Virus record (IMG/VR): IMGVR_UViG_2547132281_000011
Direction: 5' to 3' (one strand)
DNA: 29,115 nt
Source of the DNA: a virus
Taxonomy: Duplodnaviria; Heunggongvirae; Uroviricota; Caudoviricetes
The notes beneath the pieces were generated by a model. It saw only the letters and a list, made by a program, of their open reading frames with translations, was not told the DNA's origin and ran no database searches. Both the position numbers and the translations under genes were made by a program. Below are positions 16,537 to 22,550 of this stretch, piece by piece (the stretch's first letter is position 1; every line of letters starts with the position of its first letter).

Positions 16537-17254
16537 AACTGCTGCCTCCCCATGTGAGATATCGCGGTGCCAGTTCGCGCAGGATGCGCTGCGGATAATG
16601 GCGGTTCTCCCGCCAGCTGGCCGCATTGCGTCCGGCATTCACCGTGGCGACATGTCCGAACCAGCGGGTGCTGTCCAGACCTTTCTGTGATGCAAGCCGC
16701 CTGTCCCGTTGTACCCAGCCCAGACCACCGTTATAGCCTGACAGTGTCATGGCCATACGCTCGCAGTCGTTGGCGGCGCTGACGCGCTGCCACAGCCAGC
16801 GGTCATAGCTGACCAGCGCCCGGATGGCCCATGCCGGATTAAACGGCTCACGGCTGTTAAGTCCCGGCATCAGCTGACTTATCCAGTCGGCAGTGGCAGG
16901 CATGAACTGCGCCAGTCCCTGAGCACCAGCCGGCGAGACCGCATCAGGTCGCCAGCCGCTTTCCTGATGCAGTTGCGCGGCGAAATCTGCCACCGGCGCA
17001 GACAGTCCCCATTCAAGCCGGGCATTACGGATCACATCATCGCGATACTGCAGCGCAGCCTGCGGAGGCTGCGCTGCGCGGGCCTGACTGAAGAAGCCAC
17101 CACACCAGAGCAGCCAGACAATCACCAGGTTGCCAGCAAGCTGCCACCAGAAGCTGTATTTATCGTTACGTGGTTCGCCGTGTCTGATGGCGGTTACGCC
17201 CAGACCAAAGGCGAACAGAATAATGAGGGTGATTTGAGGCCAGTTCATGGTCAC
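16520..17254 (-). CDS. Membrane-anchored (SAR-type) endolysin with lytic transglycosylase domain
   Basis: N-terminal TM (WPQITLIILFAFGLGVTAI) then SLT motif AAQLHQESGWRPDAVSPAGAQGLAQFMPATA. Confidence 0.8.
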   Translation of the reverse strand: MTMNWPQITLIILFAFGLGVTAIRHGEPRNDKYSFWWQLAGNLVIVWLLWCGGFFSQARAAQPPQAALQYRDDVIRNARLEWGLSAPVADFAAQLHQESGWRPDAVSPAGAQGLAQFMPATADWISQLMPGLNSREPFNPAWAIRALVSYDRWLWQRVSAANDCERMAMTLSGYNGGLGWVQRDRRLASQKGLDSTRWFGHVATVNAGRNAASWRENRHYPQRILRELAPRYLTWGGSSCVASG

Positions 17255-17601
17255 AGTCCTGTTGCCACAGCCAGACAGACCGCTGCAACAATCAGTGCAC
17301 GGCGGATTAACGCAGCAGAAAATACAAGGTGAAGGCCGGTCTGCACAGGGAAACGCCCTTCAGCCATCAGCCTGTCTTCATGTTTCAGGTACTGACCGGG
17401 ACGGGCTTTGGGGAAGAGCGAACGGTCAAGCCAGTAACCCAGCACTGCTGCCAGCGTGATGAGTGCCAGCTTGTAGATCACAACAGGCAACTGCTGTGGC
17501 GAGACCAGAGCGATGGTGCCCAGCAACAGCACTGAGGTCAGCAGCCAGCCGCTGAGGCGAGGTTTTTTAACAGGGGGAATGAATTTTTTCAGGCTTTTCA
17601 T
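17251..17601 (-). CDS. Holin-like small membrane protein, first gene of the lysis/late operon
   Basis: 116 aa from ATG 17601 behind AAGGAG; multiple hydrophobic helices; ATGA overlap with endolysin gene. Confidence 0.5.
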   Translation of the reverse strand: MKSLKKFIPPVKKPRLSGWLLTSVLLLGTIALVSPQQLPVVIYKLALITLAAVLGYWLDRSLFPKARPGQYLKHEDRLMAEGRFPVQTGLHLVFSAALIRRALIVAAVCLAVATGL

Positions 17602-17687
17602 GTGTGTCTCCTTGTTTGGTGGAGACAGCATCACAAATGTGGCGGGATACGGATTTTAAAGCGCGTTATAAGTGTTCGCAGAGGGAA

Positions 17688-17704
17688 GCGACCAGAATGG
17701 TCGC
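17688..17704. promoter_or_regulatory. Perfect 7-3-7 dyad GCGACCAgaaTGGTCGC upstream of the lysis operon (candidate activator/operator site)
   Basis: Exact inverted repeat about 85 bp upstream of the holin-like start, in the divergent intergenic region. Confidence 0.3.
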
Positions 17705-17731
17705 ACACAAAACATAGGGGAGGCAAGCACA

Positions 17732-18055
17732 ATGACTGAACCGAAACAGTCTGGTATTAAAAAAGGGTTCCTCTTTGGGAGCAGAATCGGAGAGCAGAAT
17801 AAAACTTACACGCTAAGCTTGGATGCATGTTGTCCAACCGAAGCGATTATAGAGCTGAAAAACGTTCTGGTTGCACTTGAAGAGAGAAGAAGTCATTTCG
17901 CCAGCGGAGAAAACAATGTCATGCTAATTGGCGATGTGGCGGCGACATCACGATATAAAACCGCACCTAATCCTGCGATTCAGTTATCCTTCGACCAACG
18001 AATACTGGAAGCGGAATCAGCAGTTCCCAGAACGGTTCGTCCTCACCAGTCTTAA
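17732..18055 (+). CDS. Hypothetical protein
   Basis: 107 aa from ATG 17732 behind GGGGAGG; 3' end overlaps the convergent ORF 17967-18542 by 89 nt, so one of the two may be spurious. Confidence 0.35.
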   Translation: MTEPKQSGIKKGFLFGSRIGEQNKTYTLSLDACCPTEAIIELKNVLVALEERRSHFASGENNVMLIGDVAATSRYKTAPNPAIQLSFDQRILEAESAVPRTVRPHQS

Positions 18056-18542
18056 CTGGGGCTGCTTCACCCGACCAGTAAAGCCAAGCACGGTGATACA
18101 GTTCCAGCACCGGGCAATCACTGTTCAATAACCTCATATCTCCGCGATGCACCTGCTCATTTGTGATGACTTCATATATCGGTGCCGTTCTTATTTCGTC
18201 TTCGCCTCTCTCATCAGCCAGTAATTCCCTGAACTTCCTGACTTCACTCAGATGCTGACAGGCAAACAGTGACTGATAGCGGGAAGGTTTATCAGGAAAA
18301 TGGCTACGGCGAACTAACTCAAACACCAGACCGACCAGCAGACTTCTGCTGATTCCACTGTCATCTTCCATTTTAGGGCCGGGGTTATAGAGATAGTTAT
18401 ACCCGTGACTCGAAAGGCCATTGGGATACATCTGATGAAGAAAAGCGGCCAGTTCTGGCATTTCAGGCTCGTATTTTCCGGTAATTACATGACAAGGCGA
18501 AGGCAGACGACTAGCGGAATCAAGTGTGTAATACGTTCCCAT
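17967..18542 (-). CDS. Hypothetical protein, 191 aa
   Basis: Long ORF with AAGGA upstream; no motif I can recognise. Confidence 0.45.
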   Translation of the reverse strand: MGTYYTLDSASRLPSPCHVITGKYEPEMPELAAFLHQMYPNGLSSHGYNYLYNPGPKMEDDSGISRSLLVGLVFELVRRSHFPDKPSRYQSLFACQHLSEVRKFRELLADERGEDEIRTAPIYEVITNEQVHRGDMRLLNSDCPVLELYHRAWLYWSGEAAPVKTGEDEPFWELLIPLPVFVGRRITESQD

Positions 18543-18657
18543 TCAGAAAACAATCCTTATCGAACAAACACTGCACGTAGGTAATACATCCAGTAAATCG
18601 CGTTAATAGAAATCATGTATCTCAAAACTTCACTCTGAACTCTGACAGTGAAAGAAC

Positions 18658-18689
18658 GACCAGCCCGGTACCCGAACTCCGGGCTGGTC
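18658..18689 (-). terminator. Strong hairpin, putative terminator of the repressor-linked operon
   Basis: Perfect 11-bp stem GACCAGCCCGG / CCGGGCTGGTC with 10-nt loop; on the minus strand followed by GTTCTTTCACTG. Confidence 0.4.
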
Positions 18690-18951
18690 ATCGCCCCACA
18701 GGAATGCACTGTGAGCCGACCGAGGTTCAGTCAGTCTCGCGAGACCAGACTAGCCTGCCATATTTTTTATAATTATAAAAGGGTTACAGATTATGAAAAT
18801 GCAGACATTCCCCATCGCTCCATGGATTGGTTGTAAACGCCGCCATGCCAGACATATTCTGGCCGATGTTTCCTAGCACGCACGAATATGAGGCAACTGA
18901 CGAGAATAAATGATGCGTCAGAATGAACCGTCGACACCGTGCTTTCAGGTT

Positions 18952-19563
18952 TCAAAAATCTGGAGAAGGTATATCTATCTGACCGACGTTTCGTAACCAC
19001 ATCTCTTGCTTTGTTTCTTTATTGGTTCGGGCGATATCATTAGCATTGTATCTGCATGTTTTAACCGCAACCTCACGAACTCGTGCTATAGGAGTATTTG
19101 TGTAGAATTTAAGATCTTCCTCTACCGCTCGTATGGCGATAAGCCCTCCACTCTGAAAACCGCTGGTTACTTTTAAAAGATCAACTCCTTGGTTATAAAC
19201 GGCATTACATACGTTAGGGAACTCATCTTCTACAGTTTTGGGGATCATCAGCATATCAGGAAGACCCTGTAACACGTTATCTTCCTTTGGCCTCCATGCC
19301 CTTCCCAAAAAAGCTGTTATAGGTTGTGGTGTAGAAAGAAATGCCAATTCTATATAAAACAAACCACTGTAGTGATCGCGTAACGAATAGACTAGTAAAT
19401 GATCTTTTCCAGTTTTACTTGCATTGCTAAGTTTTATATCAAATGGTTTTTTCTGGTACTTAAGCAATCCATCAACTCCCGCATAATAATGCTTTGAAAC
19501 AGCAACAGAAAGTTGATGTACTTGGTTCGGATAATCTGTTCTATATCGTTTAATTAGCCCCAT
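18952..19563 (-). CDS. Hypothetical 203-aa protein, second gene of repressor-linked accessory operon
   Basis: ATG 19563 with GAGG 6-7 nt upstream, 20 nt after the upstream gene; AT-rich; no recognisable motif. Confidence 0.6.
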   Translation of the reverse strand: MGLIKRYRTDYPNQVHQLSVAVSKHYYAGVDGLLKYQKKPFDIKLSNASKTGKDHLLVYSLRDHYSGLFYIELAFLSTPQPITAFLGRAWRPKEDNVLQGLPDMLMIPKTVEDEFPNVCNAVYNQGVDLLKVTSGFQSGGLIAIRAVEEDLKFYTNTPIARVREVAVKTCRYNANDIARTNKETKQEMWLRNVGQIDIPSPDF

Positions 19564-19583
19564 AATAGCCTCGCAGTTATTTT

Positions 19584-20570
19584 CTATTTCAAAATATAAC
19601 GATATTTACTATCTGGAGTGTTTTGTTGGTCAAGTAATAGAGCTCTACATGGGGCGGTCAAAACACGGGCATAACGACCATCGGGGTTTATGTTGATGTA
19701 ACAAGTTTTCCCTTTAACACCATAAGATTCAGGTATTATTGCCTGTGTAGACACCGTGAATTTAAGGGTATGCCAGCCCGATTTTTGCTTGTAGCTTGAA
19801 ACCGAATGGAAATCATCTGAGTACTTATTTAACCCTGGAAACATGCTGCGTAATGCTGGGATGGAATCTTCTATTATTTTGTCGTTGGTTTTAATGTTAA
19901 AAACGCTGGTTTCAGTAGATGCTACTGCTTTAGCATTTCCCCATTTACCAGCGAACACAATCATTCCCACGAAAAATATTGCGACAAGAACTAACGCTCC
20001 CCCCAACACTACTACATGAGGCTTCCGGCTTCTGGTTGGTACAGTCGCGACTGATTTTGCCCCGCTGTCCGATGGAGGTGATAGAGTTTTACTCTCATCA
20101 CGAATATTCAGCAGATCATCAAAATAACCAAACACAGCCTGCAACTGCTCTTTGTCCAGGCCTTTAAGATGGGTTGTACCGAAATGCTTCAGACAGTATC
20201 TGTCACGGTCAAGACGATACCTAGGGTCAGTAAGCACCATTATTTTGCTGACCAGAAGATTACAGTCCTTCATATTCTGGATCTGTTGTGCATATCTCTG
20301 GAGGATCTCAACCGCACCATGATAATCAGCCGCAGTCATTTCATTAACTGTTTTGGTATTAAGTTTCGTGTGGATCGTCATCCATAGTTCGCGCTTACTT
20401 TCCCCCAGATCAACCAATTCATCCATCAATCTGTGTAAATCGCGTTTTTGCAGCAACGAAATTGGTTGCTGGGCAGAGGGAAGTATGTCAGCAGAATAGT
20501 TATGAATGGTAACATCACCGCTGACAACGTTACCCACATCTCCGTTAACTGTTTGCTTCTCTTTACTCAT
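19584..20570 (-). CDS. Single-pass membrane protein (cytoplasmic ~190-aa N-domain, one TM, ~115-aa C-domain), translationally coupled to repressor gene
   Basis: TM segment VVVLGGALVLVAIFFVGMIVFAG; start ATG overlaps repressor stop (ATGA at 20567-20570); N-terminus NGDVGNVVSGDVTIH echoes the repressor C-terminus. Confidence 0.65.
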   Translation of the reverse strand: MSKEKQTVNGDVGNVVSGDVTIHNYSADILPSAQQPISLLQKRDLHRLMDELVDLGESKRELWMTIHTKLNTKTVNEMTAADYHGAVEILQRYAQQIQNMKDCNLLVSKIMVLTDPRYRLDRDRYCLKHFGTTHLKGLDKEQLQAVFGYFDDLLNIRDESKTLSPPSDSGAKSVATVPTRSRKPHVVVLGGALVLVAIFFVGMIVFAGKWGNAKAVASTETSVFNIKTNDKIIEDSIPALRSMFPGLNKYSDDFHSVSSYKQKSGWHTLKFTVSTQAIIPESYGVKGKTCYININPDGRYARVLTAPCRALLLDQQNTPDSKYRYILK

Positions 20571-21028
20571 TTTCTCTTTGTATTTTTGTTCATTATTCCA
20601 CCTGTTCCTATGGTTACGTTACCTTTGATAACATTCCCCAGAACATCTCCATGAATAACCTGTTCCGCCCGTTCTCTGGAGGAGCCAGTCGTCAATGCCG
20701 ACAAAACTGAACCTTTGACTTGTAACGGTGCTTGCCGGTAGTGCTGAAGTAACTCCATTTCATCACGTGATAAAGTTATACCTGATGATTCCCCAGTAAG
20801 AATGAACTGTACGTTGGCCCCAATTCTTGCAAAGGCTGCAAGTAACTCACCTCCGGGAACTGCAACCCCTCGTTCATATTTCCCCCACATTTCTCTTGAA
20901 ACGCCACAAAGGGCTGCTACTTCAGCCTGCTTGAGTGATAACCGCGAACGCTCAGCTTTGAACCGCGACGCGCAAAGAGAATCAAAATTCACATAAACCT
21001 CATTGACAATGAGAACAATAGTTCTCAT
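20567..21028 (-). CDS. Prophage repressor, XRE/Cro-CI-type HTH (functional analogue of Mu c)
   Basis: HTH motif LSLKQAEVAALCGVSREMWGKYERG; divergent from the early operon; start codon lies within the early-promoter operator region, leader apparently very short. Confidence 0.75.
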   Translation of the reverse strand: MRTIVLIVNEVYVNFDSLCASRFKAERSRLSLKQAEVAALCGVSREMWGKYERGVAVPGGELLAAFARIGANVQFILTGESSGITLSRDEMELLQHYRQAPLQVKGSVLSALTTGSSRERAEQVIHGDVLGNVIKGNVTIGTGGIMNKNTKRK

Positions 21029-21031
21029 AAT
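21004..21031 (+). promoter_or_regulatory. Early promoter (Pe-like), sigma70-type
   Basis: TTGACA (21004-21009), 16-nt spacer, CATAAT (21026-21031), about 45 nt upstream of the ner-like ATG. Confidence 0.55.
21010..21027. promoter_or_regulatory. Operator: perfect 18-bp palindrome TGAGAACAATAGTTCTCA
   Basis: Exact 7-4-7 dyad filling the spacer of the early promoter and abutting the repressor start codon. Confidence 0.55.
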
Positions 21032-21078
21032 CTATCACATATAAAACAAACATCATTGCATCAACAAAGGAGACAACA

Positions 21079-21267
21079 ATGACTTCCGAACAAGTTAAAA
21101 CTCTCTTCCGTCAGCGTGGTATCACGTTTACCCGCTGGGCCGAAGAACACGGCTACAGCCGCAATGAGGTCTATCGTGTTCTCAATGGACAGACCAAAGC
21201 TCGTTACGGCAAAGCCCATGAAATTGCCGTAAAGCTGGGATTAAAACCCACGTCAAATGCGGCATAA
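21079..21267 (+). CDS. Small Ner/Cro-like DNA-binding protein, first gene of early operon
   Basis: 62 aa, AAGGAG RBS, HTH-like FTRWAEEHGYSRNEVYRVLNG; position as Mu ner. Confidence 0.55.
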   Translation: MTSEQVKTLFRQRGITFTRWAEEHGYSRNEVYRVLNGQTKARYGKAHEIAVKLGLKPTSNAA

Positions 21268-21319
21268 ATTTTCCATATATGCAACAGGTTATCACATATT
21301 GCAAAAATGGAAATGTGAC

Positions 21320-21628
21320 ATGAGTAAAGTAAATATCTCCAGTTCCGGGACCCGCATCCTACGTGTACTCAAAGCTCTACGCGGTCACTCTCTGAACGGT
21401 GTTTCTAACGGTGAACTGGCATCAGCCCTAGATGAGTCCCCGGCGAACATCAATCGAGCACTCAATACCCTTATCGAAGAGGGACTAGCCCTGAAACTGG
21501 AAAACGGGCGTTTCGCACCAGGCATCCAGTTGCTGCAGATCGCCATGGCCCACAGTAACGAGATGGCACGTGCACAGGATCGCATTAACGAAATCAACCA
21601 ACGTGTTATTTCAGGTAGTCGTTTGTAA
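21320..21628 (+). CDS. Winged-helix-like DNA-binding protein
   Basis: 102 aa from ATG 21320; TRILRVLKALRGHSLNGVSNGELASALDESPANINRALNTLIEEGL resembles wHTH regulators; start uncertain. Confidence 0.45.
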   Translation: MSKVNISSSGTRILRVLKALRGHSLNGVSNGELASALDESPANINRALNTLIEEGLALKLENGRFAPGIQLLQIAMAHSNEMARAQDRINEINQRVISGSRL

Positions 21629-21638
21629 GGAGTAATCA

Positions 21639-22550
21639 ATGGGACGCACCAAATCACCGGTTAGCACTGAACTGAACGTCGAGGTACCGCTGTCGGATGA
21701 TCTCAATGTCAGTCTAAACGCCATGACACAGCATCGCATGGAAATCATGCAACAGTTCGGCGATGGTCTGCCCTATGAGCGCGATCGTGTTGTCCATGAG
21801 GCACGCTTTTATATGGCACAGAGCGCTGAGGCCATGCTGGAGGCAGGTAAGCGGCTGATAATCCTTAAGGAAAATGAACCACACGGGGAGTTTATAAAGA
21901 TTCTTGAAAGTGAGTTGGGGCTGGCATACCGGACATCTGTGAGAATGATGCAAGCATCGACAAAATACTTATCCCCGGCGCTGAAACCAAATGTGCCAAC
22001 GTTGGCACATTTGGGAAAAGCCAAACTTTTCGAATTAATGACAGAAGACGACGAAGAGCTTGCCGAACTGGCCGACGGCGGCACAGTTGCCGGCATGACG
22101 CTTGACGATGTTGATCGCATGTCAGTACGTGAATTGCGTCAGGCCCTGCGTGAAGCGCGCGAAACCAACGCAGCACAACAGCGTGTTCTCGCCGATAAAA
22201 ATGAAAAAATAGACTCACTCTCCACCAGACTGGAGAAGAAATCCCGTATTCAGCCACCTGAGCCTGATGAAGAGGTGAAGAAACTGCGGGCGGAAGTGAC
22301 CGCGTTAGCGGTTGAGGCGGAATCTGCCATCGCCGTTCGACTGTCCAGCGCTTTTGAGACACTGTGCGCATATTGTGCTGAAAACATGATTGATACCCCC
22401 AGAGACTTCATGGCAGGCCTGGTCTGTCAACTGGAAAGCACAGCGCGTAGCCTGCGCTCCACATTTGACCTGCCGGACGAGCCAACAGGCGATGTCGCGC
22501 CTTCATGGCTGACTGAGCCGACGCCACAGATTAACGGGCTGGAGGCATAA
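21639..22550 (+). CDS. Hypothetical early protein, 303 aa (possibly DUF3102-like), with coiled-coil C-terminal half
   Basis: Strong AAGGAG RBS; charged helical region (RELRQALREARETNAAQQRVLADKNEKIDSL); not present at this position in Mu itself. Confidence 0.55.
   Translation: MGRTKSPVSTELNVEVPLSDDLNVSLNAMTQHRMEIMQQFGDGLPYERDRVVHEARFYMAQSAEAMLEAGKRLIILKENEPHGEFIKILESELGLAYRTSVRMMQASTKYLSPALKPNVPTLAHLGKAKLFELMTEDDEELAELADGGTVAGMTLDDVDRMSVRELRQALREARETNAAQQRVLADKNEKIDSLSTRLEKKSRIQPPEPDEEVKKLRAEVTALAVEAESAIAVRLSSAFETLCAYCAENMIDTPRDFMAGLVCQLESTARSLRSTFDLPDEPTGDVAPSWLTEPTPQINGLEA

What the first reader, a model, noticed from the sequence alone, without database searches (positions are those of the whole stretch)
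18543..18951. 409-bp non-coding gap with a perfect 11-bp-stem hairpin and a 12-bp palindrome
The interval contains GACCAGCCCGG-(10 nt)-CCGGGCTGGTC at 18658-18689 and the palindrome GTCTCGCGAGAC at 18734-18745, and no convincing ORF. It may hold the terminator of the repressor operon, a promoter for the 191-aa ORF, a small RNA, or the boundary between two mobile elements.
Basis: seen in the sequence. Interest (0 to 1): 0.35.

Follow-up and report, generated by a model that had tools for sequence, protein, structure and literature searches.

The report
Orphaned phage small-RNA gene beside dead dam

Summary
Both features are present at the stated coordinates. The 11-bp hairpin is well above chance. 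The 12-bp palindrome alone is not.

The window is a BcepMu-like transposable prophage of E. coli. The gap is a decayed "dam cassette". Related phages carry an intact D12-class DNA adenine methylase starting at 18793. Here only about 100 bp survive, frameshifted.

Immediately upstream lies a roughly 100-nt structured element, matched by the model at 18644-18760. It folds on the minus strand:
- 92.7% of cells paired across 89 sequences, with 23 of 28 pairs showing compensatory changes.
- 132 G·U against 21 A·C cells across 30 sequences.

A conserved sigma-70 promoter points into it, with a TAnnnT -10 box. A U-rich tail follows it.

It lies beside 71 of 80 Dam-homologue loci across Beta-, Gamma- and Deltaproteobacteria. 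It is also in phages phiE125, VP882, Bise and Aval, and in 555 of 5,426 complete E. coli genomes. No Rfam family matches it, and Mu lacks it.

The palindrome is the predicted 5' hairpin. The 11-bp hairpin is the 3' terminator-like stem.

The likely role, which is inferred, is control of the neighbouring com/methylase genes. No transcript has been shown.

The left part of the gap carries a late-type promoter motif for the DUF2441 gene.

The parts
18543..18593 (-). 5' untranslated region of the DUF2441 gene (start codon at 18542)
   Evidence: The ORF and the Pfam DUF2441 hit are. The SD-like AAGGA aligns with the holin leaders of relatives. The role is inferred.
18594..18609 (-). Late-promoter-type motif CTATTAACGCGATTTA, the probable promoter or activator site for the DUF2441 gene
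   Evidence: A 2-mismatch twin lies at 17657-17672 upstream of the holin gene. The same motif, followed by TTTAAAAT, lies upstream of holin in Mixta (L059), Photorhabdus and Symbiopectobacterium relatives.
18648..18745 (-). Predicted small RNA of about 98 nt. The covariance-model match spans 18644-18760 and includes the -10 box.
   Evidence: Model R1 scores 90.6 bits, E=6e-22, full length, on the minus strand. The minus strand folds better in 27 of 30 relatives. Covariation is shown. The 5' and 3' ends are inferred from the promoter and the tail, not measured.
18734..18745 (-). The predicted start site is G18745/18746, 6-7 nt after the -10 box.
   Evidence: Every relative has a different palindrome at this position, for example GTCATCGATGAC, CCGTAGCTACGG and GCCTACGTAGGC. 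The hairpin begins 5-8 nt after the -10 box in 59 of 84 sequences.
18694..18717 (-). Middle hairpin P2' (GGCUCACAG / CUGUGGGG). Its + strand copy CTGTGAGCC (18709-18717) is the anti-SD segment 'c'.
   Evidence: P2' has 9 pairs, 91-93% paired, with 54 G·U and 1 A·C on the minus strand. The c:f helix is shown.
18656..18691 (-). With the tail GUUCUUUCA (18657-18649) it looks like a terminator.
   Evidence: P1' has 14 pairs, 12 of them with compensatory changes, 92% paired. The minus strand averages -25.0 kcal/mol against -20.0 for the plus strand. The terminator scan flags a shorter stem (18662-18678) inside this hairpin. The tail is U-rich across the family.
18654..18728 (-). Closing helix P0' (plus-strand GAAC 18654-18657 with GTTC 18725-18728), which makes a three-way junction with P2' and P1'
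   Evidence: The helix has 5-7 pairs, 97.5% paired in 89 sequences, and 4 of 5 pairs show compensatory changes. It is only 4 bp long in this window.
18752..18757 (-). -10 box of the small-RNA promoter (CAGGCT here, TAGGCT in most relatives)
   Evidence: At positions 1, 2 and 6 the counts are T 65/77, A 76/77 and T 77/77, while positions 3-5 vary (TAGAAT, TACAAT, TATGAT and others) without compensation in the supposed pairing partner.
18765..18780 (.). AT palindrome TTTTATAATTATAAAA. It holds the -35 box TTTATA (18779-18774, minus strand, 16-nt spacer). It also holds the -10 box of a second, stronger minus-strand promoter, TTTTCA(18799-18794)-16-TATAAT(18777-18772).
   Evidence: In relatives the -35 region 16-18 nt upstream of the -10 box is TT(T/G)(C)CA-like, better than controls at p=7e-12.
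18780..18792 (+). Shine-Dalgarno and spacer of the former dam gene (segment 'f', AGGGTTACAG), complementary to 'c'
   Evidence: The window carries a C-to-G change that introduces one mismatch.
18793..18893 (+). Pseudogene: the 5' remnant of a D12-class DNA adenine methylase (ORF 18793-18876, MKMQTFPIAPWIGCKRRHARHILADVS*)
   Evidence: It aligns to the Dam N-termini of phages PhiKM and KP12. There is one extra G near 18861, substitutions at conserved residues, and the homology fades by about 18893.
18894..18951 (.). Lineage-specific junction and 3' flank of the 203-aa gene
   Evidence: This sequence and the 203-aa gene occur only in the same 26 E. coli genomes, always with this junction.

Best explanation
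The gap is the remnant of a mobile 'small RNA + DNA methylase' cassette inside a BcepMu-like prophage. The main surviving feature is a minus-strand small-RNA gene. It has a sigma-70 promoter: a -35 box inside the AT palindrome and a -10 box, CAGGCT, at 18757-18752. The transcript is predicted to start at about 18745 with the 12-bp palindrome as a 5' hairpin. It then folds into a three-way junction (P0', P2', P1') and ends after the long GC-rich hairpin 18656-18691 and a U-rich tail, at about 18648.

In intact cassettes the RNA is transcribed away from, and its promoter overlaps, the leader of the adjacent com/DNA-methylase gene. Plus-strand transcripts that cross the element carry a segment (CUGUGAGCC) that can pair with the ribosome-binding region of that gene (GGCUUACAG).

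My inferred mechanism is that the RNA and its promoter control methylase expression. This could work by antisense pairing with read-through leaders, which would open, process or mimic the SD-sequestering helix. It could also work by competing for RNA polymerase with the methylase promoter, as momP2 does in phage Mu.

In this window the methylase is dead. The RNA gene is therefore an orphan, and its terminator-like hairpin probably also ends the repressor-operon transcript.

Shown: the sequence family, the minus-strand structure with covariation, the promoter signature and the linkage to methylase genes. Inferred: that the RNA is transcribed, where its ends lie, and what it regulates.
For: Identity of the locus: 100% match to the E. 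coli ATCC 43896 chromosome, with a gene order like BcepMu. Relatives KP12 and PhiKM have an intact dam at the equivalent of 18793.

Strand: the minus strand folds better in 27 of 30 sequences (mean -64.2 against -53.4 kcal/mol, p=5e-7). There are 132 G·U against 21 A·C cells on the minus strand.

Structure: 92.8% of cells paired and 17 of 28 pairs compensatory in 30 sequences. In 89 sequences, 92.7% are paired, 23 of 28 pairs are compensatory, and 409 compensatory cells compare with 100 in shuffles (0 of 500 shuffles as high). Slid controls pair at 24-57%. RNAalifold recovers the same helices independently.

Promoter: the TAnnnT -10 box is nearly invariant, the -35 region beats controls at p=7e-12, and the -10 core varies without compensation.

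Tail: 48% U in the 12 nt after P0'.

Linkage: full-length hits lie next to 71 of 80 Dam-homologue loci. In a dam-independent search, 67 of 77 loci have Dam 10-56 nt away, or about 180 nt away with com between. Most of the rest have com and/or another DNA methylase family. The element is also present in phiE125, VP882, Bise and Aval.

The c:f helix: 88.5% paired, one compensatory pair (UA 18, CG 9, UG 3), and it favours the plus strand in 25 of 30 sequences. An independently changed version is seen in phiE125.
Against: There is no transcript evidence of any kind; the RNA's existence, start and end are predictions.

The -10 box in this window and its E. coli relatives is CAGGCT, which lacks the first T, and the -35 matches are weak.

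The U-tract is not adjacent to P1' in many lineages, and only 58% of sequences have a run of three or more U.

The 5' hairpins are perfect palindromes including the loop. That would also fit a DNA-level site or quasi-palindrome correction.

No conserved plus-strand promoter was found, so it is unclear which methylase transcripts contain segment c.

Support for the c:f helix rests mostly on one covarying pair plus G·U pairs.

In this window the c:f helix has a mismatch and P1' has a weakened apex, so the local copy may be decaying.
Confidence: 0.68

Rival explanations
1. The hairpin is simply the intrinsic terminator of the repressor operon (and the insulator in front of the late genes), and the palindrome is an unrelated operator. 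No separate RNA gene exists.
For: The hairpin with its UUCUUUC tail lies on the same strand as, and downstream of, the repressor-328aa-203aa genes, and the scan flags it.
Against: The same hairpin, with covarying stems, is found in phiE125, VP882, Aval and many prophages where nothing on that strand lies upstream except the methylase leader. A conserved promoter points into it. It is embedded in a conserved three-way junction. The palindrome sequence is not conserved, only its symmetry and position. Terminating the repressor transcript can be an added local role.
Confidence: 0.12
2. The element is a plus-strand mRNA leader (a riboswitch-like or Com-type translational switch) of the methylase gene, and the minus-strand signals are incidental.
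For: Helices involving the ribosome-binding region (c:f and e:f) favour the plus strand and covary. Upstream plus-strand genes end exactly at the element's left edge in phiE125, VP882 and Aval, so read-through transcripts would contain it. Mu's com-mom operon uses a translation-inhibiting structure.
Against: P0, P1 and P2 carry 132 C·A mismatches on the plus strand that are G·U pairs on the minus strand. The plus-strand folds are 5-10 kcal/mol weaker. The segment that would close P3 on the plus strand behaves as a -10 box, not as a helix strand. No Rfam riboswitch matches. This reading is probably complementary rather than exclusive.
Confidence: 0.12
3. The constraint acts at the DNA level only. 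Overlapping divergent promoters and palindromic protein-binding sites regulate the methylase gene as at Mu Pmom, and the divergent transcript has no function of its own.
For: The -10 and -35 boxes are conserved. The 5' hairpins are perfect palindromes including their central 4 nt. Mu has a divergent promoter, momP2, that holds RNA polymerase.
Against: The strand-specific G·U excess and the 23 of 28 covarying pairs, spread over 100 nt of transcribed sequence, are not expected for protein sites. The stem sequences differ completely between lineages, while the cassette moves between unrelated phages that would not share a regulator.
Confidence: 0.06
4. The hairpin and palindrome are chance features in decaying junk left by a deletion.
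For: The dam gene is dead, and 12-bp palindromes occur at the chance rate.
Against: The covariance model scores E=6e-22. The element is conserved in at least 150 loci from three proteobacterial classes and in 555 E. coli genomes.
Confidence: 0.01

Closest known systems
Phage Mu com-mom regulatory region (divergent promoters momP1/momP2; Com-relieved translation-inhibiting structure)
   Same: It sits immediately upstream of a late, potentially harmful DNA-modification module, which in several relatives begins with a Com-like zinc-finger gene. A promoter fires away from the module and overlaps its control region, like momP2. An RNA helix can hide the ribosome-binding site.
   Different: There is no sequence or structure match in Mu itself. 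The divergent transcript here is a conserved, highly structured RNA, whereas no function is known for the momP2 transcript (my own knowledge; one search says only that the promoters are divergent). The enzyme is a D12 Dam-type or other methylase, not Mom. No C-protein site or GATC cluster was identified.
Phage and mobile-element cis-antisense RNAs (P22 sar, lambda OOP, IS10 RNA-OUT, plasmid countertranscripts)
   Same: It is a short RNA with its own promoter, made of stem-loops and ending in a terminator-like hairpin. It is encoded opposite the leader of the gene it would control.
   Different: It does not overlap the start codon; it covers the region 45-145 nt upstream. It has a three-way junction rather than one or two hairpins. 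The best Rfam countertranscript hit (ctRNA_pGA1) scores 29.5 bits against a threshold of 45, in one relative only.
Com + DNA adenine methylase modules of Mu-like prophages (B3, FluMu hin1523, Pnm1, Hia5)
   Same: The gene module is the same: com, then a DNA adenine methylase in the place of mom. Several cassettes found here have exactly this arrangement.
   Different: That paper mentions possible Com-binding sites at the 5' end of hin1523 but does not describe an upstream small RNA. Whether FluMu or Pnm1 carry the element was not tested. The 3.4 kb at the right end of B3 (positions 35000-38439) shows no com or methylase gene.
Retron non-coding RNA (msr-msd)
   Same: A closing inverted repeat encloses one short hairpin and one long stable hairpin.
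   Different: The family has no reverse-transcriptase partner. The one adjacent RT gene, in phage Bise, is convergent rather than downstream. A promoter-proximal extra hairpin precedes the junction.

Membership tests
Rfam families (any of 4227) | Score at or above the family's gathering threshold | tested here: not met
   Window 17500-21400 gave no relevant hit at E<=5. Eight diverse relatives gave only tRNAs and a sub-threshold ctRNA_pGA1 hit (29.5 bits against 45) on the minus strand of L075.
Intrinsic (Rho-independent) terminator | GC-rich stem-loop on the transcribed strand | tested here: met
   P1' has 13 bp in the window and 14-17 bp in relatives, averaging -25 kcal/mol on the minus strand.
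Intrinsic (Rho-independent) terminator | U-tract directly after the stem | tested here: inconclusive
   In the window the tail is GUUCUUUCA, flagged by the scan. Across the family the tail is 48% U. The run often follows the closing helix P0' rather than P1', and only 58% of sequences have three or more consecutive U.
Intrinsic (Rho-independent) terminator | Mapped RNA 3' ends at the site | not testable with these tools
   This needs Term-seq or 3' RACE.
Independently transcribed small RNA gene | Own promoter in the right orientation and distance | tested here: met
   The -10 box TAnnnT (65/77, 76/77, 77/77 at positions 1, 2 and 6) has a TTtcCA-like -35 box 16-18 nt upstream, p=7e-12 against controls. 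In the window the boxes are CAGGCT and TTTATA, with a second promoter TTTTCA-16-TATAAT.
Independently transcribed small RNA gene | Conserved secondary structure supported by covariation on the transcribed strand | tested here: met
Independently transcribed small RNA gene | Detected transcript | not testable with these tools
   No RNA data are available, and literature searches found no report.
cis-antisense regulator of the adjacent gene | Overlap with a transcript of the target gene | tested here: inconclusive
   The c:f helix implies that plus-strand transcripts cross the element. No conserved plus-strand promoter was found, so overlap depends on read-through from upstream genes.
Mu com-mom control region | Homology to the Mu sequence or structure upstream of com | tested here: not met
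   The covariance model finds nothing in Mu 34300-36717 at E<=5 with filters off.
Mu com-mom control region | com gene followed by a DNA-modification gene | tested here: not met
   The window has no com and only a dam stub. Some relatives do have com followed by a methylase.
Retron msr-msd | Reverse transcriptase encoded immediately downstream on the same strand | tested here: not met
   Neighbours of the element are holin, DUF2441, tail or lysis genes. The single RT neighbour, in Bise, is on the opposite strand.
Plus-strand riboswitch or leader | Structure conserved on the mRNA strand | tested here: not met
   For P0, P1 and P2 the plus strand carries C·A mismatches where the minus strand has G·U (132 against 21). 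Only the helices that touch the ribosome-binding site favour the plus strand.

The most novel reading that the evidence does not exclude
This is a previously unrecognised, widespread family of structured phage small RNAs. Each has a three-way junction, its own promoter and its own terminator. The family is the constant partner of mobile anti-restriction DNA-methylase (com/dam, Mom-like) cassettes across Beta-, Gamma- and Deltaproteobacteria and in about 10% of complete E. coli genomes. It would act as the master switch of those cassettes, or even have a separate trans-acting or anti-defence role that explains why it survives here after the methylase was lost.
Probability: 0.35. Interest if true: 0.8.

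Novelty: new variant of a known kind. Interest (0 to 1): 0.62.

Why it matters
Phage-borne Dam-type methylases protect phage DNA from restriction and can reprogramme host methylation, yet outside Mu's mom operon almost nothing is known about how they are controlled. A conserved RNA gene welded to these cassettes gives a concrete, testable regulator, and it is present in hundreds of sequenced E. coli strains, including ABU 83972, and in model phages (phiE125, VP882). It is also a ready candidate for a new RNA family with unusually rich covariation. It corrects annotation as well: Dam CDSs in PhiKM-type prophages are called 30 codons too long and run into the RNA gene. For this window specifically, it turns an "empty" gap into a dissected regulatory junction made of a late-type promoter, an orphan small-RNA gene and a dam pseudogene.

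Tried and rejected
1. My first idea was a minus-strand promoter in the AT-rich hairpin next to the dam start. It is not conserved in relatives. It was replaced by the TAGGCT -10 box found in an unbiased position scan.
2. I treated AGGCU/AGCCU as the base of a plus-strand hairpin. This was rejected because the 3' strand varies like a -10 box without compensation.
3. A SAM/SAH or other riboswitch upstream of a methylase: no Rfam hit, and the strand is wrong.
4. A retron-like RNA: the family has no RT partner.
5. A small protein (the 62-aa plus-strand ORF, recalling the 62-aa Com as I remember it): loop indels break the frame and there is no zinc-finger motif.
6. The palindrome as a shared operator: there is no second copy in the window.
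7. A leader of the late operon with an antitermination site: rejected because in many hosts the downstream genes are on the other strand.
8. Homology to Mu's mom region: none. BcepMu itself has no dam gene annotated (I did not run the RNA model on it), and the right end of B3 shows no com or methylase gene.
9. Literature searches for a described RNA found only unrelated items, such as HnrS.
10. A conserved plus-strand promoter for dam: not found.
11. mafft-qinsi structural alignment was unavailable.

Full report
**Observation.** The sequence contains GACCAGCCCGG-N10-CCGGGCTGGTC at 18658-18689 and GTCTCGCGAGAC at 18734-18745, as stated. RefSeq annotates nothing between the DUF2441 gene (17967-18542, minus strand) and a 203-aa gene (18952-19563, minus strand). 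Perfect 11-bp inverted repeats are rare: 3 in the window against 0.145 per shuffle. Perfect 12-bp palindromes are not: 7 against 7.5.

**Context.** The window is 100% identical to a chromosomal prophage of ETEC strain ATCC 43896. The gap and its flanks are at least 99% identical in 25 other complete E. coli genomes. Gene order and Pfam hits match BcepMu: holin, SLT lysin and late genes lie on the minus strand, and a Ner-like gene, DUF3102, the transposase, ExeA and GemA lie on the plus strand. The gap lies in the variable region between the repressor operon (HTH repressor, 328-aa and 203-aa genes, minus strand) and the late genes.

**What the right half is.** Klebsiella phage KP12 and Escherichia phage PhiKM match 18649-18873 at 85-89%. 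There an intact D12-class DNA adenine methylase gene starts at the equivalent of 18793. In the window the reading frame runs MKMQTFPIAPWIGCKRRHARHILADVS and then stops. It has one extra G, substitutions at conserved residues, and loses homology by about 18893. This is a dam pseudogene joined to a module (the 203-aa gene) that exists only in the same 26 genomes.

**A conserved block more constrained than the gene.**
- In 44 distinct relatives, recovered with an 18-mer anchor (54 IMG/VR loci plus KP12 and PhiKM), 18647-18792 is more conserved than the dam coding sequence. The stems are kept and the loops vary, including indels.
- To escape the anchoring bias, I fetched 80 loci through the Dam protein from one genome per species. 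The block lies upstream of dam in Enterobacterales, Betaproteobacteria and Deltaproteobacteria.
- No Rfam family matches, either in the window or in eight diverse relatives.

**Which strand.** The hairpins form on either strand, but the wobble pairs do not.
- Per-sequence folding favours the minus strand for P1 (25 of 30), P2 (27 of 30), P3 (23 of 30) and the whole element (27 of 30; -64.2 against -53.4 kcal/mol; p=5e-7).
- On a minus-strand alignment, the closing helix P0', the 9-bp P2' and the 14-bp P1' give 92.8% standard pairs, and 17 of 28 pairs show double changes. No shuffle reaches this, and slid controls pair at 36-46%.
- Those helices contain 132 G·U cells on the minus strand but only 21 A·C cells, which is what G·U on the plus strand would look like.
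- A covariance model built from this alignment finds a full-length minus-strand match next to 71 of 80 Dam loci, and in the window at 18644-18760 (90.6 bits, E=6e-22).
- With 89 distinct sequences the figures are 92.7% paired, 23 of 28 pairs compensatory, and 409 compensatory cells against 100 in shuffles. RNAalifold recovers the same three-way junction plus a covarying 2-bp helix.

**Promoter and ends.**
- A position-free sigma-70 scan of the minus strand put the best -10 box at one and the same place in 43 of 77 sequences: the conserved TAGGCT at the 5' edge of the element.
- That hexamer is T 65/77, A 76/77 and T 77/77 at positions 1, 2 and 6, with a free core (TAGAAT, TACAAT, TATGAT, TAAACT). 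The sequence it would pair with in a plus-strand hairpin does not compensate.
- A TT(T/G)CCA-like -35 box lies 16-18 nt upstream, better than controls at p=7e-12.
- In the window the boxes are TTTATA (18779-18774) and CAGGCT (18757-18752).
- The window also has a stronger tandem promoter, TTTTCA-16-TATAAT (18799-18772).
- In relatives a hairpin, usually a perfect palindrome of unrelated sequence, begins 5-8 nt after the -10 box in 59 of 84 cases.
- Downstream of P1'/P0' the minus strand is 48% U. In the window the tail GUUCUUUCA is flagged as terminator-like.
None of this has been confirmed by RNA data.

**Linkage.** A search keyed on P2 alone, independent of dam, returned 77 IMG/VR loci with the element.
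- 67 have a Dam homologue on the other strand 10-56 nt from the promoter, or about 180 nt away with a Com-like zinc-finger ORF between.
- 3 have no room to judge.
- Most of the remaining 7 carry com and/or a different DNA methylase family.
- Two look like orphans, as here.

The element is also upstream of the methylase in Burkholderia phage phiE125, Vibrio phage VP882, Pseudomonas phage Bise and Acidovorax phage Aval. These phages have quite different architectures, and in phiE125, VP882 and Aval the preceding plus-strand gene stops at the element's left edge. Mu's own com-mom region lacks it. BcepMu has no dam gene annotated, and I did not search it with the model. In E. coli the element occurs in 555 of 5,426 complete genomes and is never annotated.

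**The plus strand also carries a signal.** The plus-strand segment CUGUGAGCC (18709-18717) is complementary to GGCUUACAG, next to the Shine-Dalgarno sequence of dam or com.
- The helix is 88.5% paired, against 21-41% when slid.
- One pair covaries clearly (UA 18, CG 9, UG 3).
- It uses G·U pairs that would be mismatches on the minus strand. The plus strand is favoured in 25 of 30 sequences.
- phiE125 shows an independently altered but still complementary version.

This implies that plus-strand transcripts crossing the element exist and can hide the ribosome-binding site. No conserved plus-strand promoter was found.

**Mechanism (inferred).** The cassette resembles Mu's mom control region in logic. 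A DNA-modification module, often headed by com, sits behind a control region with a promoter firing the other way (momP2) and an RNA structure that blocks translation. Here the divergent transcript is itself a conserved structured RNA, perfectly complementary to the upstream part of any read-through leader, including the anti-SD segment. I consider antisense or promoter-competition control of methylase expression the most likely function. I put about 0.7 on a real minus-strand RNA family with this anatomy, and about 0.4-0.5 on the specific regulatory role.

**In this window.** The target gene is dead. The c:f helix and the P1' apex each carry a defect. The surviving hairpin probably also terminates the repressor operon.

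**Left half of the gap.** CTATTAACGCGATTTA (18594-18609, minus strand) has a twin at 17657-17672 upstream of the holin gene. It matches the motif, followed by TTTAAAAT, that precedes holin in relatives. It is probably a late-type promoter serving the DUF2441 gene.

**Limits.** The covariance-model alignment is fitted to the model. The independent MAFFT and RNAalifold results agree with it. Related sequences inflate shuffle statistics; the slid controls and the G·U asymmetry do not depend on that. Quasi-palindrome correction could mimic covariation in the perfect 5' palindromes, but it cannot explain the strand-specific wobble pairs elsewhere. Literature coverage is partial.

Noticed in passing
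window 18793-18893: The 5' remnant of a D12-class DNA adenine methylase gene (27 codons then a stop, one inserted G, decayed conserved residues). It is not annotated as a pseudogene in RefSeq.
   Followed up: yes
window 17657-17672 and 18594-18609 (minus strand): Two copies of a motif CT(A/T)(T/A)TAACGCG(A/C)TTTA lie 52-71 nt upstream of the holin and DUF2441 start codons. The same motif precedes holin in Photorhabdus and Symbiopectobacterium prophages. It is probably the late promoter or activator site of this phage group.
   Followed up: partly
window 17050-17077 and 21987-22014: Two further perfect 11-bp inverted repeats lie inside the SLT-lysin and DUF3102 genes. Such repeats are expected 0.145 times per window by chance.
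   Followed up: no
L138 (Pseudomonas phage Bise) 43-1074, 1120-1239, about 1277-1440: A reverse-transcriptase-family gene ends 45 nt from the 3' end of the small RNA, in convergent orientation. An unannotated Com-like zinc-finger ORF (MTEIRCAACSRKLGEGEF...) lies between the RNA promoter and dam.
   Followed up: partly
L003 (phage PhiKM) 3913-4767, and RefSeq E. coli genomes: The Dam CDS is annotated about 30 codons too long. It starts at an ATG inside the small-RNA gene, and this extension is interrupted by stops in other relatives. The conserved start, with its SD sequence, is the internal ATG.
   Followed up: partly
L180/L204 and L165/L228 (IMG/VR): The same RNA element precedes com plus a DPPY-type DNA methylase in one pair of loci, and a divergent Dam-like methylase in the other. 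It is therefore tied to the module rather than to one enzyme family.
   Followed up: partly
L107 4953-5024 and L114 5844-5916: In two deltaproteobacterial MAG loci a tRNA gene lies 200-1100 nt beyond the dam gene on the opposite strand. This suggests that dam sits at the prophage end next to a tRNA attachment site.
   Followed up: no
window 18765-18780: The perfect AT palindrome TTTTATAATTATAAAA creates a consensus TATAAT on both strands. This is specific to the truncated-dam lineage; relatives have TTTTCACTGATTGCAAAA or similar. It gives a stronger minus-strand promoter (TTTTCA-16-TATAAT) than the family's usual one.
   Followed up: partly
alignment A6 columns 51-52 with 100-101 (window about 18719-18720 with 18692-18693): A 2-bp helix bridging the junction strands covaries strongly (CG 47, UA 25, GC 7) and extends P2' across an internal loop. 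The adjacent CC-UUGG junction sequence is nearly invariant.
   Followed up: partly
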